IMG/VR virus record: IMGVR_UViG_3300012971_000022 | Coordinates: 1 to 62,796 of that record | Reading direction: 5' to 3' (one strand) | Length of the DNA stretch: 62,796 nt | From: a virus | Taxonomy: Duplodnaviria; Caudoviricetes | In this document: positions 1 through 62,796 of the stretch, one piece after another | Numbering within the stretch: the stretch's first letter is position 1 | Layout: the number at the start of each line of letters is the position of its first letter | The notes under the pieces: generated by a model | What the model was told of the DNA's origin: nothing | Databases searched by the model: none | What the model saw: the letters and a program-made list of their open reading frames with translations, nothing else | Translations under genes and position numbers: made by a program

Positions 1-134
1 CGCGTCTTGTAGCCCTTGATGGTGGGCATCGCGTTCTGGGCATCGAGGATGATCCCCGGGGTCGTCAGGTTGGAATCCGGCGCGAAGTCGTAAAAGGGGA
101 CCTCCTGCCCGCTGCCGAGCTTTCGTATCGGCAT
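1..134 (-). CDS. 5' part of tail nozzle/DNA-stabilization protein (continues at 62796)
   Basis: ATG at 134 overlaps the TAA of the upstream gene; MPIRKLGSGQEVPFYDFAPDSNLTTPGIILDAQNAMPTIKGYKT runs off the edge in the frame that joins the 61473-62796 ORF. Confidence 0.8.
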   Translation of the reverse strand, partial: MPIRKLGSGQEVPFYDFAPDSNLTTPGIILDAQNAMPTIKGYKT

Positions 135-1102
135 TACCAGTCACTCGGCGGGATTCCGGCCCGCACGTCCCTCTGGGTGCCCTGCTGTTGGAGGTCCAAG
201 AATTCCTGATTCGCAAGATCGAAACAGAGTTGCGCCATCTGCTGGTCGCCGATGACCGCCTCGTTGATGCGACCTTCCGCGTAGTGCCGCACCATGGCTT
301 CCGCCTGCGTCGTCCAGACGTTCGTGTCGCTGGAGTTCTGCGCGATGGGCGGTGCAGAGCGGTAGCTGAAAGTGATCGGGTACTGACCCACCGGGTACGG
401 CCAGACGTAAAGCTTGCCGTGGTAGTACGCGTACATCGACGGGTAGGTCGTGGGCGGGGTCGGCCGGATGACGTCGAGATTGCGCAGTCTGGCGTACGAC
501 TCCGGGGCCAGTTCGACCCGCAGGTTCCGCGCCCATGTGATTTCCACCCGCGTGAAGGCGATGAGGTCGATGGGCAAGTCGAACTCGTTGGTATTGTAGA
601 CGGTGCTCAGCTGCGGGTTGGATCTGAACCCGCCGATGATCAGGCCATTGTTGATCCACATGACCCCCGTCGGTGGCCCGCCATTGTCGATGATGGTCCC
701 CGGCGTCCCGACCGGTGGCGGTGGAATAGGGGGCACCCCACCAGCCGGGGCCGGGGGTACAACGAACGGTATATTTACGACCGACTGGAAGTTGGGTACG
801 TTCGCCGGGTCGGTCAGACCCGCGTTGGCGGCAACAAAGTTCCACACCGCGCCGGTCGGATCGGTGTACTGGATGGTGGTCCCGCGCGTGGTCTGAACAG
901 CGGCCTGCCAGACCAGCGGATCGGCATTATCGGCGGAGGTGAAAAAGAACGGCTTGCGCTGCCAGAACCTCATGCTGTCTTGGAGGTAGTTGGCAACCAC
1001 GCCCTGCAAGTTGGGGCGATTTATGTCATCCAGAGTGCGCTGCTGGAGCGCTCCGTAGGTTCTCTGGTCGACTTGGGTGTTAGGCCACTGTTGCGGAGGC
1101 AT
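134..1102 (-). CDS. Head-tail adaptor (tail tubular A-like) with internal insertion
   Basis: Lies just before the nozzle gene; TYGALQQR N-terminus, LYVWPYP and TNVWTTQAE motifs resemble podovirus adaptors. Confidence 0.65.
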   Translation of the reverse strand: MPPQQWPNTQVDQRTYGALQQRTLDDINRPNLQGVVANYLQDSMRFWQRKPFFFTSADNADPLVWQAAVQTTRGTTIQYTDPTGAVWNFVAANAGLTDPANVPNFQSVVNIPFVVPPAPAGGVPPIPPPPVGTPGTIIDNGGPPTGVMWINNGLIIGGFRSNPQLSTVYNTNEFDLPIDLIAFTRVEITWARNLRVELAPESYARLRNLDVIRPTPPTTYPSMYAYYHGKLYVWPYPVGQYPITFSYRSAPPIAQNSSDTNVWTTQAEAMVRHYAEGRINEAVIGDQQMAQLCFDLANQEFLDLQQQGTQRDVRAGIPPSDW

Positions 1103-15873: not shown

Positions 15874-15876
15874 GAC

Positions 15877-21524: not shown

Positions 21525-21586
21525 GGGTACACCTCGGCGGGGCGGCGACCCGCACGAATGCAAGGAACACTAAATGGCTTGCAGTG

Positions 21587-22779: not shown

Positions 22780-22877
22780 CGGAACACTCGCCCGCGAATT
22801 ATCAGGCTTGCGATTACGATGCCCACGGTTACGCCGCTAACAAATCCTGCCGCCCACATCAGTCTTTCTCAGGTCGC

Positions 22878-45881: not shown

Positions 45882-46094
45882 ATGAAGAAAAGGATCGCAA
45901 AGCGGAAAGCAAAGCGAGTACGGCTCGAACGTCCGCACACGCAGGTGTTTTCATTGCGTCTACCCATCGAGGACCTTTACCGGCTGAAAGATATCGCCAA
46001 GGCGCAGCGTCGCACGCTGTCCAATCTGGTGATCGTCTATGTGGCCGAGGGTCTTGAGCGTGACTACCCCACACAGGAGAAAAAGAGTGCCTGA
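45882..46094 (+). CDS. Arc-like ribbon-helix-helix regulator
   Basis: VFSLRLP......L..IA..QRRTLSNLV. Confidence 0.8.
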   Translation: MKKRIAKRKAKRVRLERPHTQVFSLRLPIEDLYRLKDIAKAQRRTLSNLVIVYVAEGLERDYPTQEKKSA

Positions 46095-49903: not shown

Positions 49904-50091
49904 TCTTGGAATCGCTACTCGAAGGGTCCACTCGCAATGAATTGGCCAACACCTTGGCGGACCTGCTGGAGCCGATGATCGGCAAGAAGCGGGAAGATGA
50001 CATCCGGGTCCGCAGCTATATCGTGCGAAGCCACTGGAGAAAGCGATGGCATCCGAAGAAGCGCCACCTGCGAGTGGTCTCGTCGCGGTAA
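49900..50091 (+). CDS. Small basic protein
   Basis: AAGGAG RBS; VRSHWR motif. Confidence 0.65.
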   Translation: MILESLLEGSTRNELANTLADLLEPMIGKKREDDIRVRSYIVRSHWRKRWHPKKRHLRVVSSR

Positions 50092-50114
50092 AGGTCGAGG
50101 GCTATCGCGCCCGT

Positions 50115-50336
50115 CTAACCGCCGCCAATCTGGCGCGTCTTCGATTCTTCTATCCAACGCTCCAGATCGTTGCGATCGATGCGCCAGCTGGAGCCGACTT
50201 GAATTGCGCCGGGGATGCGGCCCCGCCGACACAGCTTGGAAATTGTGGGTGCCCCAACCCGTAGTCGCGCTGCCGCCTCGCGCACCGTGAACCAGCGTGT
50301 GTCGTCCGGGAACTGCTCTTCTATCCTCGGTTTCAC
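50115..50336 (-). CDS. HTH_17 excisionase-like DNA-binding protein (start approximate)
   Basis: FTVREAA.RL.V...TI..L...G.IP...VG.SWRI...DL..W. Confidence 0.85.
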   Translation of the reverse strand: MKPRIEEQFPDDTRWFTVREAAARLRVGAPTISKLCRRGRIPGAIQVGSSWRIDRNDLERWIEESKTRQIGGG

Positions 50337-50403
50337 TTCCCGCTGCTTGCGCTCCTTCGCTGGCTGCGGCCCCTTCCATTCACCCCAATGTGTACCACGT
50401 TCG

Positions 50404-50769
50404 CTAATGCCCATCGCTACTTTCCGGTGGTGGATCAGGAATCTGAACGCACTTGGCCCGCTGCTCAGGAGTCTTCGCATTGCTCAGACAGCCCTGCTGA
50501 GCCGCCCGAAGGGCAGCGCGCATGAATCCCTGAATCTGGCTGAAGTCGCCCTCCAGCTTCTTGTGCTCCTGTTGTAGCACGCTTAATTGATGCAGTTCTG
50601 ACAGGGTGTACTGGTCAAGGATGTTGATACGGTGGTTGATGTTGCCAGCAATGTACCATCCCGCAGAGATAGCTATTAGGCTCGGTACCCCTACGATCGA
50701 AACCGCAAGGTACGCGGGAGCTTTCGACCACCACGGTTCCTTGGCCGCAAGTTCTAACTCGCTTCCCAC
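50404..50769 (-). CDS. Lysis-cassette membrane protein (holin/antiholin-like)
   Basis: N-terminal TM, coiled coil, C-terminal Cys pair. Confidence 0.55.
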   Translation of the reverse strand: MGSELELAAKEPWWSKAPAYLAVSIVGVPSLIAISAGWYIAGNINHRINILDQYTLSELHQLSVLQQEHKKLEGDFSQIQGFMRAALRAAQQGCLSNAKTPEQRAKCVQIPDPPPESSDGH

Positions 50770-50783
50770 CCCTTTCGCGTCCC

Positions 50784-51383
50784 TTACGCTCCCTTAAGAC
50801 CTCTTATGTAGAACTGCGTGCACTTCGCCACCACCACCGCGCCGTCGGTATCGCAGCCTGCGACGACTACTAATGCGGGTGGCTTCCCGTTCGACGCTGG
50901 CTGAATCGTCCAGTTAGGCCAATTGGGAATGGGCGTTCCGTTAGCCGCCATCTTCTCGCCAGTGACGTAGTCAATACGCATACCGCTGACGTACACCGCC
51001 TGCCCCACCGGGACCGTACACCATGAATACGGGTAGTCGCCGCGCCCGTGCATGTAGCCCCAGTAGGGATACATCGGAAAATTAGGACCGTTGGAGTTGC
51101 TCACGCCAATGTCAACTCGACAGCGCGCTGCCACCGTACCCTGATTCTCCAGAATACTGATGAAGTGCGAGTACAGGACGAAGTCTCCTACTCCGCTCTG
51201 CAATGGAGTGAGGATGGCCACATAGCTGCCGTCCGGTTTCTTGAGTCCTTGCAACCACTGGCCAGAAGGCTTCGCCAGAGGAGCGGAGTAGAAATCTATC
51301 GGGTCTGAGTACTGGTCGAACCACTCCTGTACTGAGGATGATGAAGGTGGTGGAGTGCCACCACCCGATGGCGGACGTCCCAT
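50784..51383 (-). CDS. Hypothetical protein, paralog of 41820-42617
   Basis: AGGAG RBS; shared motifs. Confidence 0.75.
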   Translation of the reverse strand: MGRPPSGGGTPPPSSSSVQEWFDQYSDPIDFYSAPLAKPSGQWLQGLKKPDGSYVAILTPLQSGVGDFVLYSHFISILENQGTVAARCRVDIGVSNSNGPNFPMYPYWGYMHGRGDYPYSWCTVPVGQAVYVSGMRIDYVTGEKMAANGTPIPNWPNWTIQPASNGKPPALVVVAGCDTDGAVVVAKCTQFYIRGLKGA

Positions 51384-51394
51384 AAGTGTTTCTC

Positions 51395-51802
51395 CTATTT
51401 GCCCACCTTGTGAAACCTTAACCTGCCAATCTGCTGAATGAAGTTATCCGGCGTCGCCCAGTTGGGCGGCTTGATGCTGGTATCGTGGTAGCTATCGGCC
51501 CCGTCAATCGGATTGCCGATGCGGTGCTTCATCACGCCATCGGCGATGATGAGACATTCTTCCCAGACCGGATCGGTGTCCTTGGGCCAATTGGTTAACT
51601 GCGGGTCGCTGCTGTACGTCAGGCTGGAATATTGCAAGCGCTGAAACAGCACTGACATGGGCGTGTTGCCCCACGACGGCGAGGTCATCCGGTTCATGAT
51701 CGAATAGGCGACCGCGACCTTGCCCGCGTGCTTCTCGCCCCGGGCCTCCCGCCAGATGCACAGGGCCATGAAGACCATGTCGGCTTGCTTTTGCAGGGTC
51801 AT
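51395..51802 (-). CDS. Endolysin, SleB/Hydrolase_2 cell wall hydrolase
   Basis: A..IW.EARGE...G..AVA....NR...QYS...GA..YH...P.WA...IG...F. Confidence 0.93.
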   Translation of the reverse strand: MTLQKQADMVFMALCIWREARGEKHAGKVAVAYSIMNRMTSPSWGNTPMSVLFQRLQYSSLTYSSDPQLTNWPKDTDPVWEECLIIADGVMKHRIGNPIDGADSYHDTSIKPPNWATPDNFIQQIGRLRFHKVGK

Positions 51803-52104
51803 GGGCTGGAGGTGGTCTCGGTTTGAGTCGCCGGTCCCTTAGATGCCGACTTGGTGACAGAGCCGCTCGAAGATCCGAAAAAATACTGCAAGACCACGGA
51901 GACAAAACCGATCTCCGCACCAAGGATGAGTTGCGAATCGACAATCGCCGTACCTTTGTACACGACGTAGGCGACGAGCAGCACGAACTGCACGATGATG
52001 AAGATGCCGATCCAGAATCTTGCACTGGTGTCGAAGCGCAGCACCGCGCTGGCGTCGCTCTCGCCCTGTACCTTAGGCAGTGACGTGGTTGGGATGGGTT
52101 CCAT
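51799..52104 (-). CDS. Holin
   Basis: Two TM helices, QYFFGSS.GS..K motif, adjacent to the endolysin; GGAGGTG RBS. Confidence 0.8.
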   Translation of the reverse strand: MEPIPTTSLPKVQGESDASAVLRFDTSARFWIGIFIIVQFVLLVAYVVYKGTAIVDSQLILGAEIGFVSVVLQYFFGSSSGSVTKSASKGPATQTETTSSP

Positions 52105-52106
52105 AT

Positions 52107-52289
52107 TCACCTCCGGAGTGGCGCGGCGGACGGACTTGGGGACGGAGTAGACGAGCGCCAACCCTGTGGTGGTTCAGTCGGCCGGTTATACGGGGTAGGC
52201 ACAAAGGTCGGTCCCGGTCCCATTGGTCCCTGCGCCCACACGAGACCGGTGAACAGAATCGCCAGACACGCTAGAGCGAGCGCCTTCAT
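52107..52289 (-). CDS. Small secreted Pro-rich peptide
   Basis: 19-aa signal ending VWA|Q. Confidence 0.7.
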   Translation of the reverse strand: MKALALACLAILFTGLVWAQGPMGPGPTFVPTPYNRPTEPPQGWRSSTPSPSPSAAPLRR

Positions 52290-54208
52290 CAGCCAATCCC
52301 AAAACAGAAATACGAAAAATACCCGCCAGTCGCGCAGTTGACGCCTCCCGGCTGCTGGTAGCAGTTGACCTGTACTTGCACAGTGCTGTTCGCGCTATTC
52401 CACATCATGCCCGTGAACCCAAGTGGGGTCTCCACACACGCTGCGTTGTTCGCGAACGCCCGCGCAAAGTGAAGGGTGACCGGCCAAGCGTTCACAAAGA
52501 TATAGCCAAATGAATCGCGCGAATTTCCCCACACCGTACCGTTGGTGGCGGTGATGGCCGGGTAGTTCAGGTTGTTCTGCGCGTGGATGAGGTCGAGACC
52601 GTTAACGTCTACCTGCATCTCCAGCGTGAAGTTGATGTTCCCGCTTTGCTGCGGCCCGTTCAGATACCAGTAGAAGGCATTTGAGTTGATTGCGTAGAGA
52701 CTGTTCCCGCCGCCTCCACCACCATCCGCTATCCACTGTCCTGTCGTGTTATTCCAGTACGCGGCCCCGGAGAAGTTGATATTGGCCCAGTTGTTGGTGC
52801 CGATGTAGCCATTGCCAATCATCACGCCTTCGCCCGAGCCGTTTCCGGTCGGGCTGGCGTAACCGGCGAGTTCCAATCCCTGAAAGGAGTCGTTCGCAAG
52901 GCCGTAGCTGAAGCGACCCGTGATCGCGCCGCTGTTATAGAAGTTAATCGGCGGGGAACCGCCGCCAGCGTAGGCGACAAGGTTGATGCCTCCCGCCCCA
53001 CCACCATTCACATAAGTTTGATCAGGCAAATAGGGACCGCCAAAGCTGGAGCTATGCCCAGTGACGGCAAAGCCCGCTGCTGTGCCAACATCGTTGTACG
53101 CCCACAACCCCGCCTGCGCGCTGGCTCCGGTGCTAGGGTTATGAACCGATACTGCCGTCGCAGCGTTCTGGTTTTTGGTGACGGTGATCGGATCGGTTGC
53201 ATTGGTCGTCAGGGCGGCGTCACCAACATACAGCCCGTTCTGGCTGACGTTGGCCTGAATGTAGCTGTTGGAGCCAAACTTCACGGACGAGTTCGTGGCA
53301 CTGACAATCTCAATTCCGCCCGCGCCGCCAGACAGGAGATTGAGCGAATCCGGCAATTCGTTCGGTCCTGAAGCCGTATAGCCGCTGCTGAGAAATTCGA
53401 CAGCACCGTAACTGCCAGCAGGATTGGGCGCTGACTTGTCGTTGTTAAGATAGAAGGTTGTCGCTGCATTCGCACCGGGGTCCGTGTTCTTCAGCAACAT
53501 CGTGGTGTTGCCGTTGTAATCGTGTTCGGCCTGAAATATCCCGCCGCCCGTCGGTGCCGCCGCGCCGATGCCTATTGCCTTGACGGTGTTCGCCCCGGCG
53601 CTGGTCCAGAAGGTGCCGTCCGGAAAGGTGAACTGGCTGGTCGGACTCAGCGTGAGATTCTTGGTCATGGTCAGGCCACCCGTGTTCCACGTCGAGCCGT
53701 CAGGCGCGGTGAACAGACTGGTGGCGCTGATGGTGCTCATGGTCACGTTGCCGGTCCCGGTCAGCTGGGTGCCCTGCGCCAGATTGCCGAAGTCCGCCGC
53801 AACGCCGTAGGGGATGAATGCGGAAAAGGGCGCAGCGCACCCGGTGGTCTGTCCGCCCTGCGCGCCCGGGCACAGGGTAATCTGCATGGCAATGCCCTGC
53901 GGGAGCGCGACTGCGCGAATGTGGCCACCAGTGTCGGTGCCGGTGGTGACGTTGGTCGGGGGGACCGGGATGCTGTTGATGACCTGCAGCTTGATGCTGT
54001 TGAAGTTGATGGTCCCGTTAATGAAGGGTGATCCGTCGGCGTTCACCACGTTCCCGGTGATGGTGCACATCGGTAGCGCTCCCGGGGTGGGAGTCGCGGT
54101 GGGCGTGGCCACTTGCGCAACAGCGACCGGTGTGGTGACCCGCACCTGCACCTTCAGGCAGAACAGGATGGCGACGAGGATGAGCCAGATGATGACCAGC
54201 GTCCTCAT
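52289..54208 (-). CDS. Signal-peptide-bearing tail-fibre-like protein
   Basis: TGATG-coupled start MRTLVII; AVA|Q then PT linker; G/T/N-rich beta repeats; Cys-rich C-terminal tip. Confidence 0.8.
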   Translation of the reverse strand: MRTLVIIWLILVAILFCLKVQVRVTTPVAVAQVATPTATPTPGALPMCTITGNVVNADGSPFINGTINFNSIKLQVINSIPVPPTNVTTGTDTGGHIRAVALPQGIAMQITLCPGAQGGQTTGCAAPFSAFIPYGVAADFGNLAQGTQLTGTGNVTMSTISATSLFTAPDGSTWNTGGLTMTKNLTLSPTSQFTFPDGTFWTSAGANTVKAIGIGAAAPTGGGIFQAEHDYNGNTTMLLKNTDPGANAATTFYLNNDKSAPNPAGSYGAVEFLSSGYTASGPNELPDSLNLLSGGAGGIEIVSATNSSVKFGSNSYIQANVSQNGLYVGDAALTTNATDPITVTKNQNAATAVSVHNPSTGASAQAGLWAYNDVGTAAGFAVTGHSSSFGGPYLPDQTYVNGGGAGGINLVAYAGGGSPPINFYNSGAITGRFSYGLANDSFQGLELAGYASPTGNGSGEGVMIGNGYIGTNNWANINFSGAAYWNNTTGQWIADGGGGGGNSLYAINSNAFYWYLNGPQQSGNINFTLEMQVDVNGLDLIHAQNNLNYPAITATNGTVWGNSRDSFGYIFVNAWPVTLHFARAFANNAACVETPLGFTGMMWNSANSTVQVQVNCYQQPGGVNCATGGYFSYFCFGIG

Positions 54209-54447
54209 CAATGCTTGGTCGCTCCGCTCTTGGGCGGATCTTTGACGTTGAGTTGCTTCTGCAGGTCTTGGATTTGCTTTTGCTGCTGGGCGATGGTGTT
54301 CGCTGCCGCGCTCACCTCCGCGTTGCATCCCGTACGCTCCAGCAAGGTCTGGACTTGGGCCGGGTCCGTTGGCAAGCCCTGCGGGGTTTGCGCCCACGTT
54401 GCCGCCGCTAAGAGCATTGCCAAGATACTGAGCGAAAGGATTTTCAT
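54208..54447 (-). CDS. Small secreted coiled-coil protein
   Basis: 19-aa signal ending TWA|Q; heptad helix. Confidence 0.75.
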   Translation of the reverse strand: MKILSLSILAMLLAAATWAQTPQGLPTDPAQVQTLLERTGCNAEVSAAANTIAQQQKQIQDLQKQLNVKDPPKSGATKH

Positions 54448-54467
54448 CGTTGTTCACCAAGGGCAGT

Positions 54468-55865
54468 TTACGGAACCGCTGACTGGCAGATCCACTGGAC
54501 GTACTGCCCGCTAGGAATATTGGTGGTGAACGACATCCCAATTCCGCTGGCGCTTGAACTGATAGCGCACCCGGCAGGAGTCGACTGCGGCGAGCAGGTG
54601 CAGACCGGGGCTTGCGCCCACGCAAGTGCAAAGTTTACTGAGCAGGTAGCACCGGTGCCGTTGAACTGAACGTATCCGGCGTTGTCGCTTGAGTTCGTAA
54701 ATACCGTCCCCGTACCAGTGCCGCAGGTGCCTGCCGTGGGCGCGGCTGTCCCACTACGCTGGGTGCCGAAGTGGTTGTTGCCGAGCAGCAGCACTTGGTT
54801 GCCGTTGGCGAGCAGGAAGACATCGGCATTCGAACCCGAGCCGGTGGCTTCGATGAGGAGACCGTTGGCTCCATTCGCGGCGAGGTACGCCCGCCCGGGT
54901 GAGGCAAAACCCGAGGCTGTGTAGCCCGTACCCCAGATGCCCAAGTCGACGACGTTGGTCCCGTTGGAGGCGCGGGTGTACGCGAGCGCTCCGGTACCGG
55001 CGCTGTTGTTGGCGACCTGCAGAATCGAGCCGCCGTTATAATCGAATTCAGCGTTCAGGTAGGTGTTGGTTAGCGACAGCCTCGGGGTCGGCGTGAAGGT
55101 GGCACCCACGGTCAGACCGGTGTCGACGCCCCAGTACTGCATCGTGCTGCCGGGAATCTGTCCGAAGTAGAGCGGGGTGGCGTTATCCGCGATCCAGTTG
55201 GTCCCGTTGTAATGCGCGCCCGTAACGTACTGCACCCCGCCAACCGAGGTGATCGAACCGCTGGGAAAGGTGACCAGACTGCTGGTGTTGTTGGTCAGGG
55301 TCAGCGAGGGCATCGTGGTCGCGCCTGCGCTGAGAGTGCCGCTGACACTGGCGTTGCCGGTGACGGTGAGTGCACCGGTAGCGGTCGCCCCAGTGACCGT
55401 GAGCGTGCTGGACAGCGTGGTCGCTCCGGTTACACCGAGCGTGCCACCCATGGTGCTGTTCCCGGTGACGTTGAGGCTGGAGGCAACCACGTTGCCGCCG
55501 CTGCTCAATTGGATGCCGATGAGAATTGACGAGATGTCAGCCGTACTCGCTATCGGGATGAGGACCGGGGTCGGGTTGCCGCAGCCGCCTTGGGCCGGAG
55601 AGCAGAACACGAACTGACCCTGCAGGCCCTGCACGATGCCGATGGGAGCGATGGTGCCGTCCGCGCCAGTTCCGGTTGAAACCTGAGTCGGTGGAACCGT
55701 CGCGCCGCCCTGCAGGGTCTGCTGGACCATCGAGTTGAAGTGCACCTGACCATTCGCGACCGGCGTCCCGTCCGGGTTGTACACTTTGCCGGTGATGGTG
55801 CAGTTCGCGGCCCAGCCCAGTGCGGGCCAGAGCAGGAAGGCGAGCGTGGCGAGGAACTTCCTCAT
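54468..55865 (-). CDS. Signal-peptide-bearing tail-fibre-like protein
   Basis: ATGA-coupled start MRKFL; GWA|A; LxVTG repeats; P.C..S...W.C tip; N-domain paralogous to 52289-54208. Confidence 0.8.
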   Translation of the reverse strand: MRKFLATLAFLLWPALGWAANCTITGKVYNPDGTPVANGQVHFNSMVQQTLQGGATVPPTQVSTGTGADGTIAPIGIVQGLQGQFVFCSPAQGGCGNPTPVLIPIASTADISSILIGIQLSSGGNVVASSLNVTGNSTMGGTLGVTGATTLSSTLTVTGATATGALTVTGNASVSGTLSAGATTMPSLTLTNNTSSLVTFPSGSITSVGGVQYVTGAHYNGTNWIADNATPLYFGQIPGSTMQYWGVDTGLTVGATFTPTPRLSLTNTYLNAEFDYNGGSILQVANNSAGTGALAYTRASNGTNVVDLGIWGTGYTASGFASPGRAYLAANGANGLLIEATGSGSNADVFLLANGNQVLLLGNNHFGTQRSGTAAPTAGTCGTGTGTVFTNSSDNAGYVQFNGTGATCSVNFALAWAQAPVCTCSPQSTPAGCAISSSASGIGMSFTTNIPSGQYVQWICQSAVP

Positions 55866-56089
55866 GGAAGTGTAAATTTGGTTCCTCGATTGACCCCTAG
55901 GGGCGTGGCAGTCGGCGTCATGGTCGGCAGCGGTGTGAAGTTCCACGGCGAGGGTGGCGGCGGTTGACGCCACGGCGTTGGGAACACAGTCGGAACGGGC
56001 GTCGGTGGTGATCCTCGCGTGACCGGACCCTGCGCAAGAACGGTTCCGACGAATAGACACACAACCAATATGATCACTAGTCTGCTCAT
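55862..56089 (-). CDS. Small secreted Pro/Thr-rich peptide
   Basis: 19-aa signal ending VLA|Q. Confidence 0.7.
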   Translation of the reverse strand: MSRLVIILVVCLFVGTVLAQGPVTRGSPPTPVPTVFPTPWRQPPPPSPWNFTPLPTMTPTATPLGVNRGTKFTLP

Positions 56090-58251
56090 GGATACGCTAT
56101 GCCTTGAACGCAGACGCCTTGCGCTCCGTGGATCTGGAGGTAATCGACGTAGATAATCTCGTGGTAAGTCGCAGTGTTGTTGACGTGAATGGCTAACTGG
56201 GGAGAGCCTGCCCCACCGTCAACCGTGACGGTGTATGCTGGCTGTGGGCTGAACATACCGCAATGCAACTGCGTAAAGGTGGTCTGCCCAATCCACTCGT
56301 TACCGCCAGCATCAAAGTCCACCGCGTAGGTGCAGACCTTTTTGGCGTAGGAGTTCGCGTTGGTATCGTCCCACACCTCAATCGTCAGCAGCCCAGTCGA
56401 CGTAACGTTCCAATAGCCAGCGGGCGTCTGAAGAACTATCGCGCCAGTTCCCGCGTTCAAACCAAAAATCTGGTGACAGGTGGAGACAACGGGCATCTGC
56501 ACCTGACTCTGAAAGGGATTTGGGGTTACTAGTCCCGTTTTTAAGTAGTCATTTCCACCCGCTTGTCCACTGTTCAGATTAAATAAATTCCAGCCTCCCG
56601 CCCAAAAATGAATCGGTGCGGCAGCGCCGTTGCTGTCGATGTTCAAGCCGTTGGTTGCGTTGGTCAGAATGCGCACACTGTCTGGCTGATCTTCCGGTAT
56701 GTCAGGCACAAATGCGCTGTTGTACATAGTGAAAGCGGCATACTTAGCGGTGGCTTGGTCATCGTTGAGGTAGTAGGTCGAGGAGCCGGTGGTGGTTTTG
56801 TTCTGGATGCTCACGTTGGTGTAGGTCGAGGTTCCTGATGGAACCACCGCAACTAACGCCTGCCCCGCTGCACTCGGCGTGAATCCAACCCCGATGCCCT
56901 CAGTGGCGGGCATGGTCAGACCAGTATTGATGAACGTCGCTGTCTGCGTCGGGCTGTAAGTAGAGCCTGCCGTCAAGCCGGTATTGACGTAAATACTGAT
57001 ACCCGCATTAGCAGCGGTGTTCGGTGAGACGATTGATGCGCCAGTAGAATCTGCCATCCAGCCGGTCGCGGTGGCGTGAGCACCCGCCGCAAGTTGGACG
57101 TTGCCGCCCGCAGCGTTAAGTGAGCCAGAAGCCAGCTTGATCGCCGTACTTGCAGTGTTGTTCACCGTGACAGTCGAGGCCGCAACCACGTTGGGGCCGG
57201 TATTCGTCCACGTCGAACCGTCGGGGAAGGTCATGGTGCCAGTGAAGGTCGGTGACGCGGCGGGGTTCGCGCAAGTCGGAACTCCGCTGGTCGAAATCAC
57301 GTTCACATAGAGGCCCGCTCCGCACGTTCCGCCCGGAGTGATTCCTGCGATCTTGGTAACACTGATCGCGCCAGTCGCGGTGATGGTCGCATCTCCCGTC
57401 ATGGTGACAGGTCCGAACGCGGTGGCTGACTGAGCCACATCGATCTGTCCCGTCGTGGGTGCGGTGCTCGACCCACGTCCGCCGTTGGCGATGCTGAGCG
57501 GGATGCTGGCCGTGGCAAGCGTGAACGTCACGCCAGAACTCTTGGTCACCGTGATCACCCCGGCGTTGGTGATGGTCGCGTCTCCCGAGATGGTCTGCGG
57601 AGTGTAGGCCGTCGCCGACTGGGCAATGAGCATCTGCGCCGAAGTCGGAGCGGTGCCTGAGCCGTTCCCGCCCAGAGCGATGCTCAGCGGGACCGTTGCG
57701 GTCGCAATGGAGGTGAACGGCTGACCGGCGGTTTTGGTCACCGTGAGCACGCCCACGCTGGTCATCGTGGCATCGCCGCTCAAGGACTGCGGAGCGAATG
57801 CGGTCGGAGAGTTCGCAATCAGGATCTGCCCGCTGCTCGGAGCAACAGCGTTGGCGGTTCCTCCATTCGCCACCGAAAGCGGGATGCTGGCAGTCGCCAG
57901 CCCAGTGAAGGCAACTCCCGAAGTCTTGGTTACGGTGAGTGCGTAGTTACCCGCGCTGGGCCGCGTCAGCGTGGCGTCTCCTCCCAGCGTCTCAGCTTCT
58001 GAGTTGTTGGCCGATGCGTAGCCGGTCATCTGTGGCGTGGTGCCTGCCGGATAGCCGGTGCCGCTGGGAGGCACCGCGCAAGTGGGAACTCCGGTCGGAC
58101 TGCCGATGACGTTCACGAACTGGTTGGCGGGGCAGGAACCGCCGATGACGGTGCCTGCGGCGACCGAGCCGCCACCACCGGGAGTGACGATCTGCGCGGA
58201 GGCCCACGCGGGCCAGAGCAGGAGCAATACTATGAGACGCACGAGGCGCAT
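56086..58251 (-). CDS. Signal-peptide-bearing tail-fibre-like protein
   Basis: 19-aa signal ASA|Q; three ~60-aa repeats with GDAT.T..G...VTK and PLS.A.GG. Confidence 0.82.
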   Translation of the reverse strand: MRLVRLIVLLLLWPAWASAQIVTPGGGGSVAAGTVIGGSCPANQFVNVIGSPTGVPTCAVPPSGTGYPAGTTPQMTGYASANNSEAETLGGDATLTRPSAGNYALTVTKTSGVAFTGLATASIPLSVANGGTANAVAPSSGQILIANSPTAFAPQSLSGDATMTSVGVLTVTKTAGQPFTSIATATVPLSIALGGNGSGTAPTSAQMLIAQSATAYTPQTISGDATITNAGVITVTKSSGVTFTLATASIPLSIANGGRGSSTAPTTGQIDVAQSATAFGPVTMTGDATITATGAISVTKIAGITPGGTCGAGLYVNVISTSGVPTCANPAASPTFTGTMTFPDGSTWTNTGPNVVAASTVTVNNTASTAIKLASGSLNAAGGNVQLAAGAHATATGWMADSTGASIVSPNTAANAGISIYVNTGLTAGSTYSPTQTATFINTGLTMPATEGIGVGFTPSAAGQALVAVVPSGTSTYTNVSIQNKTTTGSSTYYLNDDQATAKYAAFTMYNSAFVPDIPEDQPDSVRILTNATNGLNIDSNGAAAPIHFWAGGWNLFNLNSGQAGGNDYLKTGLVTPNPFQSQVQMPVVSTCHQIFGLNAGTGAIVLQTPAGYWNVTSTGLLTIEVWDDTNANSYAKKVCTYAVDFDAGGNEWIGQTTFTQLHCGMFSPQPAYTVTVDGGAGSPQLAIHVNNTATYHEIIYVDYLQIHGAQGVCVQGIAYP

Positions 58252-60072
58252 CTAGTTCGTCACCCCCCAACCGCTACAAGACAATTCGCCCGCCGCCGCT
58301 ATGGCGGTGAGGGTGGAATTTCCCGGCGAATTGTTAGTACCGGAACCTGAGAGTTGAATGCCACCACTAGTCCCAATGGCCGGATTGACAAAACAATTTA
58401 GTATTGGCTGTAGTGAGGACAGAGTGATTCCATAAAAGCCCGACGGGTATCCCCGAGAAACCTGCGTCATCGTGACCGGAGGAGCGGAGATGTACACATC
58501 AGACACGCCGCCTGAACCAGCCGTGAAGGCAGTCCATTTGACATCCACAGTCCACCAGACGTTCGCGCCCACTCGCGTGTAGCGTCCGTATTGCGTGCTG
58601 TACGTCACCGTTGGGTCGGTCCCACTGATTCCCTTCAATGTGGGGGTAAACGCGGTAGGCGCGGTGTAATCGGAGAGATTGGCGTGCGCCAGCGACGTGG
58701 GCGCATAGGCGGTCGTACTCGTGGCGACCAGTGCCTGTCCCACCGTCGGCGCAGTCGCGGTGCCGGTCCCGCCAGAGGCGATCTCCAGCGGGCTGTTCAG
58801 ATGCAGACCGTTGGTCGCGAAGTAACCCTGAATCGCGTTGTTGATGAGAAATTGAATTTGCTGACTGGTATGTGCGGCTATGTGGATGCCCTGATCGCCC
58901 CACAGGACCGTACTGTTCGCCGTGTCGTCTGGTGCGTTGCCAGTCCATCCGGTGCCGTCAATCCAGAGCGCGCCCATGTTGCTCCCGTTATCCGCTCGAT
59001 ACCCGGCCTGTGCGCCAGTCCCAGAGCCGTGGTTCCAGACCAAAGGAGCCGTGATTCCGTTTCCGTCTCTGGTGATGGCAATTGGGTCAGTGGTTGCTGC
59101 CTGCCCGATTCCAATGGCTTTACTGTTGTTCAACCCTGCCGTGGTGTAGGTCGCGTTGTCAGGGAAGGTGAACTGGGTGGTAGCCTTGATGGTCCCATCG
59201 TTGATGCCGGTGTTTGACCAAGTCCCGCCATCCGGTCCGGTGAAGGTCGAACCAGCGTTCATGGTCAGACCTGTGCTCACCGTCCCGCTGGTCAGCGTGA
59301 GGATCGGAATAGTCACCGTGCCCGTAAAGGTCGGACTGGCGGTGGGCGCGTAGGTGGTGCAGACCATCTGGTAAGCGTTTGTGCCGGTCCTCGTGAACGA
59401 GCAACCGCCCGCACCGCCACTCACCGTCTCCGATTCAGCCGCACCCCCAGCCGTGTAACCGACCATTTGCGGCGCGGTACCGGCGGGAACGCCGCTAATG
59501 CTGGGTGTCGTACAAGTGGGAACACCCGAGGCCGAGATGGTCGAGACAAACTGCCCGCCGGAACAAACACCCCCGGGGGTAATCCCGTTTATTTTCGGGC
59601 AAGTGATGGCCCCTGCGCTGGTAATCGAACAATCGCCCGTCATCGTGGTCGCGCCGTAGGCACTGGTGGATTGGGCAATCATCACTTGCCCTGCCGTGGT
59701 CGGTGCCGTGGTGGTTCCGGTACCGCCCAGAGTGACGAGGACCGGAGAGGTGAGGCTCAAAGTGGTCGCAGTAGCGGTGAGGCCGGTCCCCGAGTTCAGA
59801 GTTGCGAGAGCGCCTACGGCAGTGCCGCCAATCTTGGTAATGGTCGCCGTGTAGGCGTTGGTCCCGGTGCGAGCGAAGGTGAAGTCACCTCCGACCGTTT
59901 CCGACTCGCCCGTGTTTGCCGCCGAATAACCGACCACTTGGGGCGGAGCGCCGGAAGGCAGGCTGGTCGTGCCCGTACCCGGGTTGGCCGGGGCAAGCAT
60001 CGGGCTCACGATCTGCGCGCGAGCGCTCCCGCAGAACAATAAGAAAAAAAGTACTAGCAGCGCTCCCGTCAT
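58252..60072 (-). CDS. Signal-peptide-bearing tail-fibre-like protein
   Basis: 19-aa signal ARA|Q; GGTG fibre motifs; FTPT...G.Y.RVG..V C-terminal fibre domain. Confidence 0.82.
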   Translation of the reverse strand: MTGALLVLFFLLFCGSARAQIVSPMLAPANPGTGTTSLPSGAPPQVVGYSAANTGESETVGGDFTFARTGTNAYTATITKIGGTAVGALATLNSGTGLTATATTLSLTSPVLVTLGGTGTTTAPTTAGQVMIAQSTSAYGATTMTGDCSITSAGAITCPKINGITPGGVCSGGQFVSTISASGVPTCTTPSISGVPAGTAPQMVGYTAGGAAESETVSGGAGGCSFTRTGTNAYQMVCTTYAPTASPTFTGTVTIPILTLTSGTVSTGLTMNAGSTFTGPDGGTWSNTGINDGTIKATTQFTFPDNATYTTAGLNNSKAIGIGQAATTDPIAITRDGNGITAPLVWNHGSGTGAQAGYRADNGSNMGALWIDGTGWTGNAPDDTANSTVLWGDQGIHIAAHTSQQIQFLINNAIQGYFATNGLHLNSPLEIASGGTGTATAPTVGQALVATSTTAYAPTSLAHANLSDYTAPTAFTPTLKGISGTDPTVTYSTQYGRYTRVGANVWWTVDVKWTAFTAGSGGVSDVYISAPPVTMTQVSRGYPSGFYGITLSSLQPILNCFVNPAIGTSGGIQLSGSGTNNSPGNSTLTAIAAAGELSCSGWGVTN

Positions 60073-60488
60073 TGCATCTGAGCGGAGAACCAGTTGTTGG
60101 CACCATCGGTGGTGAGCGCGGTGCAGGCTGCTGGGTTGGTGGAGATCTCGACCAGCAAGCCGCTATTCACGATTACGGGATGGCTGGTCCAATCGAACGA
60201 GGCAGTCCCATCCGCCTGATTACCCGCGCCTTGTATGAACTGGCACACGATGAGCGGGGTCGAGGCCGTGAACACTCCCTGTCCCGGCGCAGTCTGGGTA
60301 TCGAACACCATCAGCCATCGCGGGTTCTGCGTGTGCCACGTCACGCTGATGGCGGTGCATTTGTTGCCCGTGAACTGGTGCAACCCTTCGAGCGTGCCTG
60401 CGGTGGTGTGCTGGTTGCCGATGACATTCTGCGCCCGCGCACAAACCGGGATCAGGATGGCTATAAGGAGTATGAGAAGGGTCTTCAT
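60069..60488 (-). CDS. Secreted beta-sandwich-like protein
   Basis: 19-aa signal ARA|Q; WLMVFD...P...G...IST pattern. Confidence 0.75.
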   Translation of the reverse strand: MKTLLILLIAILIPVCARAQNVIGNQHTTAGTLEGLHQFTGNKCTAISVTWHTQNPRWLMVFDTQTAPGQGVFTASTPLIVCQFIQGAGNQADGTASFDWTSHPVIVNSGLLVEISTNPAACTALTTDGANNWFSAQMQ

Positions 60489-60985
60489 GGATGGACCGCG
60501 AGACAGGCGAGAGTGGCGAACGACGCCGCGACGGCGGTGGCTGCTACCGTGGTAACGGTGCAGGTATTCGCCGCTGACGCGGTTACGGTCCCCTCAACCG
60601 GGAATCCCACAGCCGTGCCCATGCCGTTGCAGATGCAATAAAAGCCGGTGTCGGCGAAGGCGGTCGGCAAAACTACCGCGCTGGTGCAGGTGGCTCCGAT
60701 CGAAGCAGCGGTAGTGCAGCCTGCCAGTGATGCAACCTGCATCTTGAGCGTGCCGGTTCCGACATTGGTGATGTTGTTCTCCGCGATGAAAGCCGTGCCA
60801 TTCCAGACGTACTGTGCGAAGCTGGTCAGGTCCGTGCACATCGCCCCTCTGACGGGGTTCGGGACCGGAGCGTAGGCCGCGCACCCGTACGCGAAGAACA
60901 GATAGTTCCCGATATTTACCGGAGCCTGCGCCCACGCGAGGCTCGGCGCGAGGCACAGGAGCAGCGCGATGAGTAGCTTTTTCAT
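60485..60985 (-). CDS. Secreted Cys-rich protein
   Basis: 19-aa signal AWA|Q; V.LP.AF.D..Y.C...C.AVH tip. Confidence 0.75.
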   Translation of the reverse strand: MKKLLIALLLCLAPSLAWAQAPVNIGNYLFFAYGCAAYAPVPNPVRGAMCTDLTSFAQYVWNGTAFIAENNITNVGTGTLKMQVASLAGCTTAASIGATCTSAVVLPTAFADTGFYCICNGMGTAVGFPVEGTVTASAANTCTVTTVAATAVAASFATLACLAVHP

Positions 60986-61473
60986 TCTTCAACCCTCCCG
61001 TGGGCCTTGAGAACGCCGGGAGCGGTGTGCAACCGGCAGGTGTCCGCCATCCAGAGCTTTATCGACGGGATGTAGGTCAGCATGATGTGCGCAGTTGGGT
61101 TAAGGTAATTGGGACTCTGGAAGAGCGAGATATTGCCCCCGCTCTGGAGGTAGAACCCGTCGTGGGAAACCAGCATCAATTGCCCCGCGAAATTGTAAGG
61201 CGGGGTGATATTGGTGATAGTCCCGGTGCCCGTGACCACATGCATAAACGAGGTGGGTACGAGCGGATCGACGGCGGGGAGATCATGTCCCTGCTGAGTG
61301 GCGCTGTGGTTAAGATTCTCCCGCAGCTGCATGAAGTACTGAACATCCATCTGCTGCTGGCGCTGCAGGTACTCGAAGATCCGGCCGATCGCCGAGCGCA
61401 CCTCCTCGAAGGTCCGGACCGGACCGAGCAGGGGCAGCATCGGCGGGGTATATTCCGGCGTCTGGTACGGCAT
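60982..61473 (-). CDS. Tail protein without signal peptide
   Basis: TAATG-coupled to the nozzle gene; helical N-terminus and beta C-terminus. Confidence 0.7.
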   Translation of the reverse strand: MPYQTPEYTPPMLPLLGPVRTFEEVRSAIGRIFEYLQRQQQMDVQYFMQLRENLNHSATQQGHDLPAVDPLVPTSFMHVVTGTGTITNITPPYNFAGQLMLVSHDGFYLQSGGNISLFQSPNYLNPTAHIMLTYIPSIKLWMADTCRLHTAPGVLKAHGRVEE

Positions 61474-62796
61474 TAACGCACTCCTGCGATGCGCCCTTCA
61501 TAGGCCATCGCTTGAATCTCACAGGGTCCGCTGGTCGAAATCTGGACTTGGTGGTAGCGGTCGGTCTGGCGGATGTTGTGCCAGCCGTCCGGCGCGAGAA
61601 TCCCGTTGGATTCGACCGTTGGGTAATCGCCCATCCGGTACGCATGCATGGGGGTGAGGGTCTGCGACGTGGGCATGTAACCCTGCGTGAAGGAGCACCG
61701 CACCTTCTGCAATTGCGTCAGGTTGTCCGCGTCTCCCTGATACCCGGTGAGCAGGTACATGGTGGTCGGTGCACCGGTCCACGACATCAGGTTGCCGTTG
61801 GTATCGAAGTAGAGTCCGGATTGCCTGCCCGGTTGGGTGTTCCACACCACCAATGGCGTGCTCAAGTAGCCCGGGACCCAGCGGCCGCTGCGTGAATTCC
61901 AAGCGACATAGCGATCCGGGGTGTTCGCGTACGGCGGGGTCTTGGAAACGTAATGCCAGTACACCGCGCCGGTCAGCGGGTCGTACCAGCTGGAGGTCAG
62001 GTTAAGCTGGTCCGGATTGCCGTTGGCATCGACGTGAACCTGCGTGAAGAACCACTCCTTGAGCGAGTTGGGAATCCGCTGCGGTGCCGACGCTTGGCAG
62101 ATGTAGAAATCATCCGTGCCCAAGAACGCCACCGCAGTCGGCATCTGGCACACGCAGCCCTGTCCCCACGTTCCGGTGTTGCCCGAGAGAATCTGGTTAT
62201 TCCAAGTGACCGTCGCGCTGCCGACGAAGTTCAGCATGAACATGGAGTTCTGCTTGAACAGGATCATGTTCCGGAACAACGCTGCGCTGGCGATGATATT
62301 GCCCGGAAAATCGTACAGGTAGCCGGTGCTCGCCTGCGTAGAAGGGATGCTGGCTCCTCCGACAGGTGCCCAGTTCAGGTCACTCCCGGCACCCGACGTC
62401 GTCCACGCGTTGTTTTGAAACCCGACCGCGAACCCGGCTACCGAGAGTACCGAAGGTGAGTTGGTCGGCGGTGTAGTAGCCCCGCTGACAGTGGCCGCAG
62501 GAAAATTCGCGAAGGTTCCGGTCGGACCGGTCGCCAACTGCATGTTGGAATTGCCCGCGCTGGTGGCTATGACATCTTCCGCAAATTGGGTCATGACCCA
62601 TGGCCATGTGGCCGTGTAGCCGCTGCCAATCTGGGTCCATGCACCGCTGACCAGCCGAAAGAGCCGCGTCGCAGTGCCGACGATGACCGAGGTGGTGCCG
62701 TCCTTGTAGAGCGGAACGTACGCGCCGAGCGGGACCTCTGTCTGGCCCGTCCCGGTGAGCGGCAGCGCGGGAGCTACCTGCACTGCAGAGTTGCGC
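61473..62796 (-). CDS. Tail nozzle/DNA-stabilization protein (3' part; begins at 134)
   Basis: Beta-propeller-like repeats W..TQF, D.PG.I, F..SD.FY-like, RYH at the C-terminus. Confidence 0.8.
   Translation of the reverse strand, partial: RNSAVQVAPALPLTGTGQTEVPLGAYVPLYKDGTTSVIVGTATRLFRLVSGAWTQIGSGYTATWPWVMTQFAEDVIATSAGNSNMQLATGPTGTFANFPAATVSGATTPPTNSPSVLSVAGFAVGFQNNAWTTSGAGSDLNWAPVGGASIPSTQASTGYLYDFPGNIIASAALFRNMILFKQNSMFMLNFVGSATVTWNNQILSGNTGTWGQGCVCQMPTAVAFLGTDDFYICQASAPQRIPNSLKEWFFTQVHVDANGNPDQLNLTSSWYDPLTGAVYWHYVSKTPPYANTPDRYVAWNSRSGRWVPGYLSTPLVVWNTQPGRQSGLYFDTNGNLMSWTGAPTTMYLLTGYQGDADNLTQLQKVRCSFTQGYMPTSQTLTPMHAYRMGDYPTVESNGILAPDGWHNIRQTDRYHQVQISTSGPCEIQAMAYEGRIAGVR

What the first reader, a model, noticed from the sequence alone, without database searches (positions are those of the whole stretch)
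52107..60985. Nine consecutive tail-region genes all carry Sec-type signal peptides: a possible exported tail-appendage system
Seen: between the nozzle-adjacent gene and the holin, nine mostly translationally coupled ORFs each begin with a hydrophobic core and an AxA-like cleavage site; eight of them also have a basic n-region. Four are 465-721 aa with phage fibre motifs (PLS.ANGG, GGTG, LxVTG, FTPT...G.Y.RVG). No fibre gene without a signal peptide is apparent. Established: tailed-phage virions normally assemble in the cytoplasm and their fibres lack signal peptides. Inference: the receptor-binding apparatus is secreted to the periplasm, folds there, and joins particles at or after inner-membrane lysis. 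Alternatively these proteins form a phage-encoded surface structure on the infected cell.
Basis: partly seen in the sequence, partly recalled or inferred. Interest (0 to 1): 0.95.

Follow-up and report, generated by a model that had tools for sequence, protein, structure and literature searches.

The report
Phage tail fibres carrying secretion leaders
In this complete short-tailed phage genome, every gene between the tail nozzle and the lysis genes, including all the long fibre genes, starts with a bacterial export signal, which suggests the fibres are made outside the cytoplasm, something not described for tailed phages.

Summary
The window is a complete, circularly closing 62.8-kb podovirus-like genome. 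Its gene order is SU10-type adaptor, nozzle, a leaderless 163-aa protein, then nine tightly packed genes, then holin-like and endolysin genes.

- **Leaders.** All nine genes start with a Sec/SPase-I-type leader (AxA|Q). A home-made heuristic scores 9 of 9, against 3 of 82 other genes.
- **Conservation.** The leaders are kept in metagenomic homologues: g2 family 20/20, g7 family 8/8, g4 homologues 34/42. They are also kept in 8 of 12 informative related viral contigs.
- **Leaderless relatives.** Four related contigs carry the same fibre N-terminal domain with no leader. Two of them start within a few residues of the predicted mature N-terminus. The leader is therefore a removable add-on to a genuine tail fibre.
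- **Other correlates.** Leader-bearing fibres have conserved Cys pairs and twice the Cys content of leaderless ones. Each is followed by a small leader-bearing protein.
- **Precedent.** The nearest cultured phages have no such leaders, and six literature searches found no report.

Best reading (about 0.5): the fibres and small partner proteins are exported, fold in the periplasm, and join particles once the holin opens the membrane. Export, cleavage and virion incorporation are not shown. The host is unknown.

The parts
134..1102 (-). Tail adaptor (SU10-type), 322 aa, no leader
   Evidence: Pfam PF24175 SU10_adaptor, E = 9.7e-12.
1..134 (-). 5' end of the nozzle gene. It continues across the record's ends into 62796.
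   Evidence: Joining the window's end to its start gives one open frame of 487 codons, starting MPIRKLGSG, directly after the adaptor. The record is a single 62,796-base contig.
61473..62796 (-). Nozzle protein (main part), no leader
   Evidence: phrog_3287 'virion structural protein', E = 6.7e-20. Distant tblastn matches to Bruynoghevirus-type virion proteins. Syntenic in L001, L004, L006, L007 and L008.
60982..61473 (-). p163: conserved leaderless protein next to the nozzle; candidate fibre adaptor or short fibre
   Evidence: Always follows the nozzle in relatives. No Pfam or PHROG hit. The Atlas feature search gives viral clusters, with a T4_gp9_10_N cluster at rank 12, score 0.92; this is a lead only. 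The L001 homologue is 271 aa with an extra C-terminal domain.
60485..60985 (-). g1: 166 aa, leader MKKLLIALLLCLAPSLAWA|Q, 8 Cys in the mature part
   Evidence: The only homologue found (P0186, 212 aa) also has a leader, plus a tip-like C-terminus.
60069..60488 (-). g2: 139 aa, leader ...PVCARA|Q; small beta-sandwich protein
   Evidence: 20 of 20 family members carry the leader; C82 and C122 are invariant. AF2 pLDDT 71: helix 2-16, linker, then beta strands. No Foldseek PDB match at E <= 0.001.
58252..60072 (-). g3: 606-aa fibre, leader MTGALLVLFFLLFCGSARA|Q with no basic residue
   Evidence: All 11 aligned family rows keep A17, A19 and Q20; C170, C187, C224 and C238 are invariant. Weak tblastn match of residues 461-563 to a cyanophage 'endosialidase' gene, E = 0.01.
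56086..58251 (-). g4: 721-aa fibre, leader MRLVRLIVLLLLWPAWASA|Q
   Evidence: 42 homologues, 34 of them with a leader. C40 and C58 are at least 90% conserved. Repeats 59% identical to the leaderless Peptidase_S74 fibre of L008.
55862..56089 (-). g5: 75 aa, leader plus a proline-rich mature part; small partner after g4
   Evidence: related to g9, E = 7e-11. 92% identical copy after the g4 homologue in L001.
54468..55865 (-). g6: 465-aa fibre, leader MRKFLATLAFLLWPALGWA|A; mature N-terminal domain starts ANCTITG
   Evidence: The same N-terminal domain is found without a leader in L008, L018, L021 and L025.
54208..54447 (-). g7: 79 aa, leader plus coiled-coil segment, one invariant Cys, conserved C-terminus DPPKSGATKH
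   Evidence: 8 of 8 family members have the leader and always follow a fibre gene. Weak phrog_89 Rz-like spanin hit, E = 0.042.
52289..54208 (-). g8: 639-aa fibre; long hydrophobic leader, TPTATPTP linker, then the MCTITG domain
   Evidence: There is an internal ATG at codon 47 with GGAG 8 nt upstream. That GGAG is not conserved in L001 or L004.
52107..52289 (-). g9: 60 aa, leader plus a proline-rich mature part; small partner after g8
   Evidence: A 62-aa leader protein sits at the same place, before the holin, in L004.
51799..52161 (-). Holin-like protein with two hydrophobic segments
   Evidence: Translation. Homologues in L004 and L007. Only a weak PHROG hit to a family of unknown function. 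The role is inferred.
51395..51802 (-). Endolysin (cell-wall hydrolase), no leader
   Evidence: PF07486 Hydrolase_2, E = 3e-13; phrog_938 endolysin, E = 4.4e-13.
50404..50769 (-). p121: N-terminal membrane segment plus coiled coil; i-spanin-like (inferred)
   Evidence: Translation. Homologues next to the holin in L004, and also in L005. No family hit above cut-off.

Best explanation
**What the block is.** It is the phage's receptor-binding apparatus. It comprises four paralogous long fibres (g3, g4, g6, g8), two small beta-rich proteins (g1, g2), and three small partner proteins, one after each of g4, g6 and g8 (g5, g7, g9).

**How it probably works.**
1. Every one of the nine is made as a pre-protein with a Sec-type leader.
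2. During late infection they are threaded unfolded through the host Sec translocon.
3. Signal peptidase I removes the leader at AxA|Q, and the proteins fold, and probably form disulfides, in the periplasm.
4. DNA-filled particles carrying portal, adaptor, nozzle and p163 are built in the cytoplasm as usual.
5. When the holin opens the inner membrane, the two pools mix and fibres dock by their N-terminal domains. Last-step fibre or tailspike addition is known for podoviruses (recalled: P22 tailspike can be added in vitro).

**Shown here:** the leaders, their conservation, the fibre homology and gene position, and the existence of leaderless orthologues.

**Inferred:** translocation, cleavage, disulfides, the chaperone role of the small proteins, and the place and time of docking.
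For: 1. **Enrichment.** 9 of 9 block genes score as Sec-like, against 3 of 82 others. No lipobox, twin-arginine or C-terminal sorting motif was seen in the translations (by eye).
2. **The leader-including starts are the coupled ones.** They overlap or abut the upstream stop. No promoter- or terminator-like site above chance lies in 50000-62796.
3. **Leaders evolve like signal peptides.** They are less conserved in sequence than the mature part (g2 family 41% vs 69% pairwise identity). They are always hydrophobic (mean Kyte-Doolittle 2.3-2.8), and 51 of 52 aligned members have a -3/-1 site.
4. **Conservation in homologues.** g2 20/20, g7 8/8, g3 11/11, g4 homologues 34/42; 106 of 164 proteins held after the profile search, against 5 of 82 control genes.
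5. **Fibre identity.** The block sits right after adaptor-nozzle-p163. The repeats match leaderless fibres that carry Peptidase_S74 (L008 7757-11710; P0018). In L006 and L007 the single giant fibre following p163 has the leader.
6. **Natural experiment.** In L008 (MATCLVTG...) and L025 (MPGPATC...) the same N-terminal domain starts within a few residues of where the predicted mature g6/g8 proteins start. L018 and L021 carry about 30 non-hydrophobic residues before it. On the nozzle tree, L008, L018 and L021 form one supported clade nested among leader-bearers, and L025 is sister to leader-bearing L024.
7. **Cysteines.** Cys pairs are conserved. Mature leader-bearing fibres have 1.20% Cys, against 0.58% in leaderless fibres of sister contigs, Fisher p = 1e-4. 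The rows are related, so this is indicative only.
8. **Module mobility.** The leader-fibre + g7-like + g2-like module also sits behind a GTA/phiJL001-type siphovirus tail in L002.
Against: - No signal-peptide predictor, proteomics or fusion data; my heuristic is home-made.
- g8's leader is atypical, and g3 lacks a basic n-region.
- L024's three leader-bearing proteins have almost no Cys, so disulfides cannot be the general reason for export.
- Cys content of the nine versus the rest of this genome differs only modestly, 1.58% vs 1.13%.
- The fibre fold could not be confirmed (AF2 pLDDT 46).
- The leaderless p163 could be the true receptor-binding protein.
- Exported fibres would be separated from particles until lysis, and the efficiency of such late docking is unknown.
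- The host is unknown.
Confidence: 0.5

Rival explanations
1. The nine proteins are exported but are not virion parts. They act in the envelope or outside the infected cell, for example by masking or destroying the receptor (superinfection exclusion, easier release), degrading exopolysaccharide, or forming a surface structure. The leaderless p163, or another protein, is the real receptor-binding protein.
For: - p163 is leaderless and conserved next to the nozzle. In L001 it carries an extra C-terminal domain.
- Phage-encoded exported exclusion proteins are known (recalled).
- No evidence here places the nine in virions.
Against: - They occupy the fibre slot of the tail operon and are homologous to leaderless fibres carrying Peptidase_S74.
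- Their N-terminal domain is the one that opens the leaderless fibre right after p163 in L008, L018, L021 and L025.
- In the complete genome no other long fibre-like gene was found. The large unknown proteins between terminase and portal have ordinary composition and no fibre hits.
- No outer-membrane export signal was seen.
Confidence: 0.2
2. The leader is not used for full export of the virion-bound form. One version is that it stays uncleaved as a membrane tether or assembly helix. The other is that internal starts give a leaderless cytoplasmic isoform that goes into virions, while the long form does something else.
For: - g8 has an in-frame ATG at codon 47, directly before the conserved domain, with GGAG 8 nt upstream. 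The Met is kept in L001 and L004.
- g3 has an ATG at codon 25.
- g8's c-region is atypical.
Against: - The GGAG before the g8 internal ATG is not conserved in L001 or L004.
- g4 has no in-frame start between codons 10 and 45. g6 has none before codon 28, which lies inside the domain.
- Basic residues precede the h-region, which predicts N-in, C-out topology. The fibre body would then be periplasmic whether or not the leader is cleaved.
- AxA|Q is conserved across families.
- Leaderless orthologues show the helix is not needed for the fibre itself.
Confidence: 0.15
3. Artefact: wrong start codons or chance hydrophobic N-termini in Gly/Ala/Thr-rich ORFs of a 61% G+C genome.
For: Start choice for g6 and g8 needed an internal start of a longer ORF. 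High-GC genomes have many spurious ORFs.
Against: - The chosen starts are the ones that overlap or abut the upstream stop.
- The leaders are conserved in independent metagenomic homologues at 40-90% identity.
- Enrichment is 9/9 vs 3/82.
Confidence: 0.03

Closest known systems
Ordinary podovirus tail fibres and tailspikes (P22 gp9, T7 gp17, SU10 long and short fibres; recalled). Also the fibres of the nearest cultured relatives, Rhizobium phage RHph_Y1_10 and Paracoccus phage KLEP18-1.
   Same: The gene position after adaptor and nozzle is the same. The proteins are long, Gly/Ala/Thr-rich and repetitive, with PLSxANGG-type repeats. They are homologous to leaderless fibres carrying the Peptidase_S74 chaperone domain.
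   Different: All fibres here carry an N-terminal Sec-type leader. 0 of 8 and 0 of 11 tail-region proteins of the two cultured phages do; only two small proteins near the end of the KLEP18-1 locus score. None of the 11 leader-bearing fibres tested has Peptidase_S74. Each is instead followed by a small leader-bearing ORF.
Leaderless sister lineage in viral contigs L008, L018, L021 and L025
   Same: Same nozzle (35-41% identity), same p163, and the same fibre N-terminal domain (C-x-[ILV]-[ST]-G...).
   Different: No leader. The protein starts within a few residues of the domain (L008, L025) or after about 30 non-hydrophobic residues (L018, L021). Cys content is lower.
Phage late proteins that use host Sec: secreted and SAR endolysins, and spanins Rz/Rz1 (recalled from the lysis literature; no call)
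   Same: Phage-encoded late proteins with signal sequences that are placed in the periplasm before holin triggering.
   Different: Those are lysis proteins, not virion components. Here the endolysin itself has no leader.
Filamentous phage (Ff) coat proteins pIII and pVIII (recalled)
   Same: Virion proteins made with cleavable signal peptides and assembled at or beyond the inner membrane.
   Different: Those phages are non-tailed, extruded without lysis, and have no cytoplasmic capsid. This phage has an HK97-type capsid, portal, terminase and a holin/endolysin pair.

Membership tests
Sec-dependent, signal-peptidase-I-cleaved signal peptide | Positively charged n-region | tested here: met
   8 of 9 have K/R before the h-region; g3 has none.
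Sec-dependent, signal-peptidase-I-cleaved signal peptide | Uncharged hydrophobic h-region of about 8-16 residues near the N-terminus | tested here: met
   9 of 9 by my heuristic. AF2 models g2 residues 2-16 and g3 residues 2-12 as a lone helix.
Sec-dependent, signal-peptidase-I-cleaved signal peptide | Small residues at -3 and -1 (AxA) after the h-region | tested here: met
   9 of 9 have a site; g8's site is uncertain. 51 of 52 aligned family members have one.
Sec-dependent, signal-peptidase-I-cleaved signal peptide | Acceptance by a trained predictor (SignalP, DeepTMHMM), and actual translocation and cleavage | not testable with these tools
   No such predictor or experiment was available.
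Lipoprotein (SPase II) or Tat signal | Lipobox L-[AS]-[GA]-C, or a twin-arginine motif | tested here: not met
   Neither is present in the nine leaders, read by eye.
Phage tail fibre / receptor-binding protein | Encoded in the tail module downstream of adaptor and nozzle | tested here: met
   Syntenic in L001, L004, L006 and L007.
Phage tail fibre / receptor-binding protein | Sequence homology to recognised fibres | tested here: met
   Repeats 59% identical over 54 residues to the L008 fibre carrying PF13884. P0018 (PF13884, Mtd_N) is among the g4 homologues. No Pfam, PHROG or PDB hit for the window proteins themselves.
Phage tail fibre / receptor-binding protein | Elongated trimeric beta-structure | tested here: inconclusive
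   The AF2 monomer of g3 has pLDDT 46.4. It is mostly strands and coil, but unreliable.
Phage tail fibre / receptor-binding protein | Presence in the virion and a role in adsorption | not testable with these tools
   Needs proteomics and genetics on a cultured phage.
Tail-fibre assembly chaperone (for g5, g7, g9) | Gene directly downstream of its fibre | tested here: met
   g5 follows g4, g7 follows g6, g9 follows g8. g7-like genes follow fibres in 7 loci.
Tail-fibre assembly chaperone (for g5, g7, g9) | Homology to known chaperone families | tested here: not met
   No Pfam or PHROG family. The role is inferred from position only.
Spanin (for g7) | Lipoprotein signal (o-spanin) or N-terminal membrane anchor next to lysis genes (i-spanin) | tested here: not met
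   g7 has an SPase-I-type leader and no lipobox. In L006 and L007 the g7 homologue lies between the fibre and the capsid gene, away from the lysis genes. The phrog_89 hit reaches only E = 0.042.
SU10-like podovirus tail | SU10-type adaptor and nozzle | tested here: met
   PF24175, E = 9.7e-12; phrog_3287, E = 6.7e-20.

The most novel reading that the evidence does not exclude
A widespread clade of uncultured tailed phages builds its virions in two compartments. Capsid and tail core are made in the cytoplasm. The whole receptor-binding apparatus, with its own small helper proteins, is exported by Sec and matures in the oxidising periplasm. The two halves meet only when the holin breaches the inner membrane. 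The trait is modular: it is found behind both podovirus and GTA-like siphovirus tails. It has been gained or lost at least twice.
Probability: 0.45. Interest if true: 0.9.

Novelty: new variant of a known kind. Interest (0 to 1): 0.8.

Why it matters
Textbook assembly of tailed phages takes place entirely in the cytoplasm. If these fibres are exported, several things follow.

- Virion completion would depend on host Sec, signal peptidase and probably periplasmic folding factors.
- Holin timing would be tied to infectivity.
- Fibre chemistry that the cytoplasm does not allow, such as disulfides, would become available.
- Signal peptides on fibre-like proteins would no longer be a reason to discard them as non-virion when annotating viral metagenomes.
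- Closely related phages with and without the leader offer a ready comparison for testing why export is used.

Tried and rejected
**Family and structure searches that found nothing**
- Pfam and PHROGs on the nine proteins and p163 gave nothing above cut-off.
- PDB sequence searches with g4 and g8 gave nothing.
- tblastn against cultured phages: g4 and g8 no match; g3 only two weak partial hits.
- The AF2 model of g3 was too poor to use (pLDDT 46.4), so no fold search was run on it.
- The AF2 model of g2 (pLDDT 71.1) gave no Foldseek PDB match at E <= 0.001, only generic Ig/FnIII-like sandwiches.

**Complex prediction**
- p163 (3 copies) with the g6 N-terminal domain (residues 20-140, 3 copies) returned 'no answer' with score 0.00. 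This says nothing either way.

**Host identification failed**
- No tRNA genes.
- The one genome-contig scan found a single contig (L012), in a metagenome-assembled genome. That genome has no match to this capsid protein.
- No integrase in the record holding L024.

**Other checks**
- Dual-start idea: only g8 has a plausible internal start, and its GGAG is not conserved.
- Spanin reading of g7: rejected on position and signal type.
- Lipoprotein, Tat, prepilin and C-terminal sorting signals were looked for by eye in the translations and not seen.
- The promoter/terminator scan showed nothing above chance.
- Supplementary files of papers were not consulted.


Full report
**What the window is.** The window is the whole record: one contig of 62,796 bases, about 61% G+C, with no tRNA genes. 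It has no terminal repeat. Joining its end to its start gives one uninterrupted frame of 487 codons that begins right after the adaptor gene, so the record closes into a circle.

The minus-strand gene order is as follows:
- large terminase (23801-25465);
- four large unknown proteins;
- portal (10423-12585);
- major capsid protein (2608-3696; PF13252, 1.9e-50);
- an HNH endonuclease;
- an SU10-type adaptor (134-1102; PF24175, 9.7e-12);
- the nozzle, which crosses the junction (phrog_3287, 6.7e-20);
- a leaderless 163-aa protein (p163);
- the nine genes of the finding;
- a holin-like protein with two membrane segments;
- a Hydrolase_2 endolysin.

The nearest cultured capsids are only 39% identical (Rhizobium phage RHph_Y1_10 and Paracoccus phage KLEP18-1).

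**The observation.** The nine ORFs lie at the stated coordinates. All begin with a short hydrophobic leader followed by a small-x-small site. Eight have a basic n-region. They overlap or abut one another, apart from a 20-nt gap before g7. My own crude leader score is a heuristic, not a trained predictor. It accepts 9 of 9 block genes against 3 of 82 other called genes, and those three look like small membrane proteins. Fisher p = 2.8e-10. No promoter- or terminator-like site above chance interrupts the run.

**What the proteins are.**
- g3, g4, g6 and g8 are paralogous (BLASTP E = 1e-10 to 5e-35). They are rich in Gly, Ala, Ser, Thr, Asn and Pro.
- None of the nine matches Pfam, PHROGs or PDB sequences, and cultured phages give at most two weak partial hits.
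- The link to fibres comes from metagenomic relatives. The g4 repeats are 59% identical to those of a 1317-aa leaderless protein in locus L008 that ends in a Peptidase_S74 chaperone domain. The leaderless homologue P0018 carries Peptidase_S74 and a weak Mtd_N match.
- g2 folds, at moderate confidence, as a lone N-terminal helix, a linker and a beta sandwich with no specific structural relative.
- g1's only homologue also has a leader.
- g5 and g9 are related proline-rich mini-proteins.
- g7 belongs to a family with a coiled-coil segment, one invariant Cys and a conserved C-terminus.

**Conservation of the leaders.**
- Of the 42 homologues of g4 in the 5.8-billion-protein collection, 34 have a leader by a relaxed test. 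The 8 without include obvious fragments and two with classical fibre N-termini.
- A profile search of 1.84 billion representatives found only 318 relatives at E <= 0.001.
- g2 family: 20 of 20. g7 family: 8 of 8. g3 family: all 11 rows keep A17, A19 and Q20.
- Leaders are less conserved in sequence than the mature parts (g2: 41% vs 69%) but stay hydrophobic and keep the cleavage-type site in 51 of 52 members. This is how signal peptides evolve.

**Survey of related viruses.** Scans with the fibre and with the nozzle returned 14 distinct viral contigs that encode a nozzle homologue. Loci L015, L016, L017 and L019 repeat L001, L006, L004 and L008. Two contigs (L014, L022) end right after p163 and say nothing.

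Of the 12 informative contigs:
- 8 have leaders on the proteins that follow p163: L001, L004, L006, L007, L013 (only a g2-like gene before the locus ends), L020, L023 and L024.
- 4 do not: L008, L018, L021 and L025.

In L006 and L007 a single giant fibre (1114 and 1209 aa) follows p163 and bears the leader, and small leader proteins follow it.

The leaderless four carry the same N-terminal domain as g6 and g8. L008 begins MATCLVTG and L025 begins MPGPATC. They therefore start within a few residues of the residue that the predicted cleavage would expose in g6 (A|ANCTITG).

On a nozzle tree of 13 rows, L008, L018 and L021 form a fully supported clade whose sister is leader-bearing L023. L025 is sister to leader-bearing L024. 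I left out L007 (partial nozzle), L022 (near-duplicate of L023) and the four repeated loci. The state has therefore changed at least twice.

The two nearest cultured phages have nozzle and a small protein followed by leaderless tail proteins: 0 of 8 and 0 of 11 tail-region proteins score.

The module is not tied to one tail type. In L002, which is the same sequence as L012, a 1339-aa leader-bearing fibre, a g7-like gene and a g2-like gene follow DUF2460, a phiJL001 Gp84-type hub and a Phage-tail_3/Rcc01698 protein. That is a GTA-like siphovirus tail.

**Hints of periplasmic folding.**
- Cys pairs are conserved: C40/C58 in g4 (at least 90%), C170/C187 and C224/C238 in g3 (invariant), C82/C122 in g2 (invariant), C88/C95 in the g6/g8 domain.
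- Mature leader-bearing fibres from the window and 17 locus genes contain 170 Cys in 14,141 residues. Eleven leaderless tail-region proteins of the sister contigs contain 30 in 5,161. The odds ratio is 2.1 and p = 1e-4, but the rows are related.
- Against this, the three L024 proteins have almost no Cys. Within this genome the contrast is small, 1.58% vs 1.13%.
- None of 11 leader-bearing fibres tested has the Peptidase_S74 self-chaperone, whereas two leaderless relatives do. The Rhizobium phage fibre is also annotated with it. Each leader-bearing fibre is instead followed by a small leader-bearing gene.

**Mechanism.** The most economical reading is that the fibres and their small partners are Sec substrates. 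The leader is cut at AxA|Q, the proteins mature in the periplasm, and fibreless particles acquire them when the holin breaches the inner membrane. The endolysin has no leader, so lysis here should depend on large holin lesions. That such lesions are large enough for particles is recalled knowledge, not tested here.

The rivals are:
- exported proteins that are not virion parts;
- uncleaved anchors or dual-start isoforms (only g8 has a plausible internal start, and its GGAG is not conserved);
- start-codon artefact.

These rivals are given lower odds for the reasons set out in their sections. Translocation, cleavage, virion incorporation and the host all remain unshown.

**Prior reports.** Six full-text searches returned no paper describing tailed-phage fibres with secretion leaders. 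I saw search listings and abstract starts. I also read single passages of PMC10791045, PMC6669507 and PMC12989515, which concern other proteins. Subscription journals and supplementary files were not covered.

**Verdict.** Within a known kind of system (tail fibres), this is a new variant with a potentially new assembly route.

Noticed in passing
window 1-134 and 61473-62796 (-): The nozzle gene runs across the ends of the record, so the contig is a closed circle or a circular permutation. There is no terminal direct repeat.
   Followed up: yes
window 12575-23644 (-): Between terminase and portal lie four large proteins of unknown family (386, 543, 454 and 899 aa). They are accompanied by a 2OG-Fe(II) oxygenase (23090-23644), a JAB-domain protein (21587-22258), and a weak ART-PolyVal match in the 543-aa protein. 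They may be ejected or internal virion proteins, in an unusual position.
   Followed up: partly
window 1080-1484 (-): An HNH endonuclease gene sits between the capsid and adaptor genes. The Rhizobium and Paracoccus relatives also have HNH genes around the capsid gene.
   Followed up: no
window 54068-54070 (g8 codon 47): An in-frame ATG lies directly before the conserved fibre domain, with GGAG 8 nt upstream. It could give a leaderless isoform. The Met is kept in L001 and L004, but the GGAG is not.
   Followed up: partly
L002 1740-14507 (identical stretch in L012): The leader-bearing fibre, g7-like and g2-like genes follow a GTA/phiJL001-type siphovirus tail (DUF2460, Gp84 hub, Rcc01698-like). 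L012 lies in a metagenome-assembled genome that has no match to this window's capsid protein.
   Followed up: partly
L001 6940-7755: The p163 homologue is 271 aa. Its extra C-terminal ~120 residues contain a G..F.RVGN motif like fibre tips, which suggests p163 can itself carry a binding domain.
   Followed up: partly
window 50404-50769 (-): An i-spanin-like protein (N-terminal membrane segment plus coiled coil) is present, but no lipoprotein o-spanin was seen nearby. The 199-aa gene between it and the endolysin has relatives in L003 and L006.
   Followed up: no
L003 9569-12427: A leader-bearing fibre that contains collagen triple-helix repeats (PF01391, 5.9e-11).
   Followed up: no
window 28861-29664 (+), 46039-46989 (+): A GP88-family protein and a RecT recombinase. 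Most other early or middle genes have no Pfam family.
   Followed up: no
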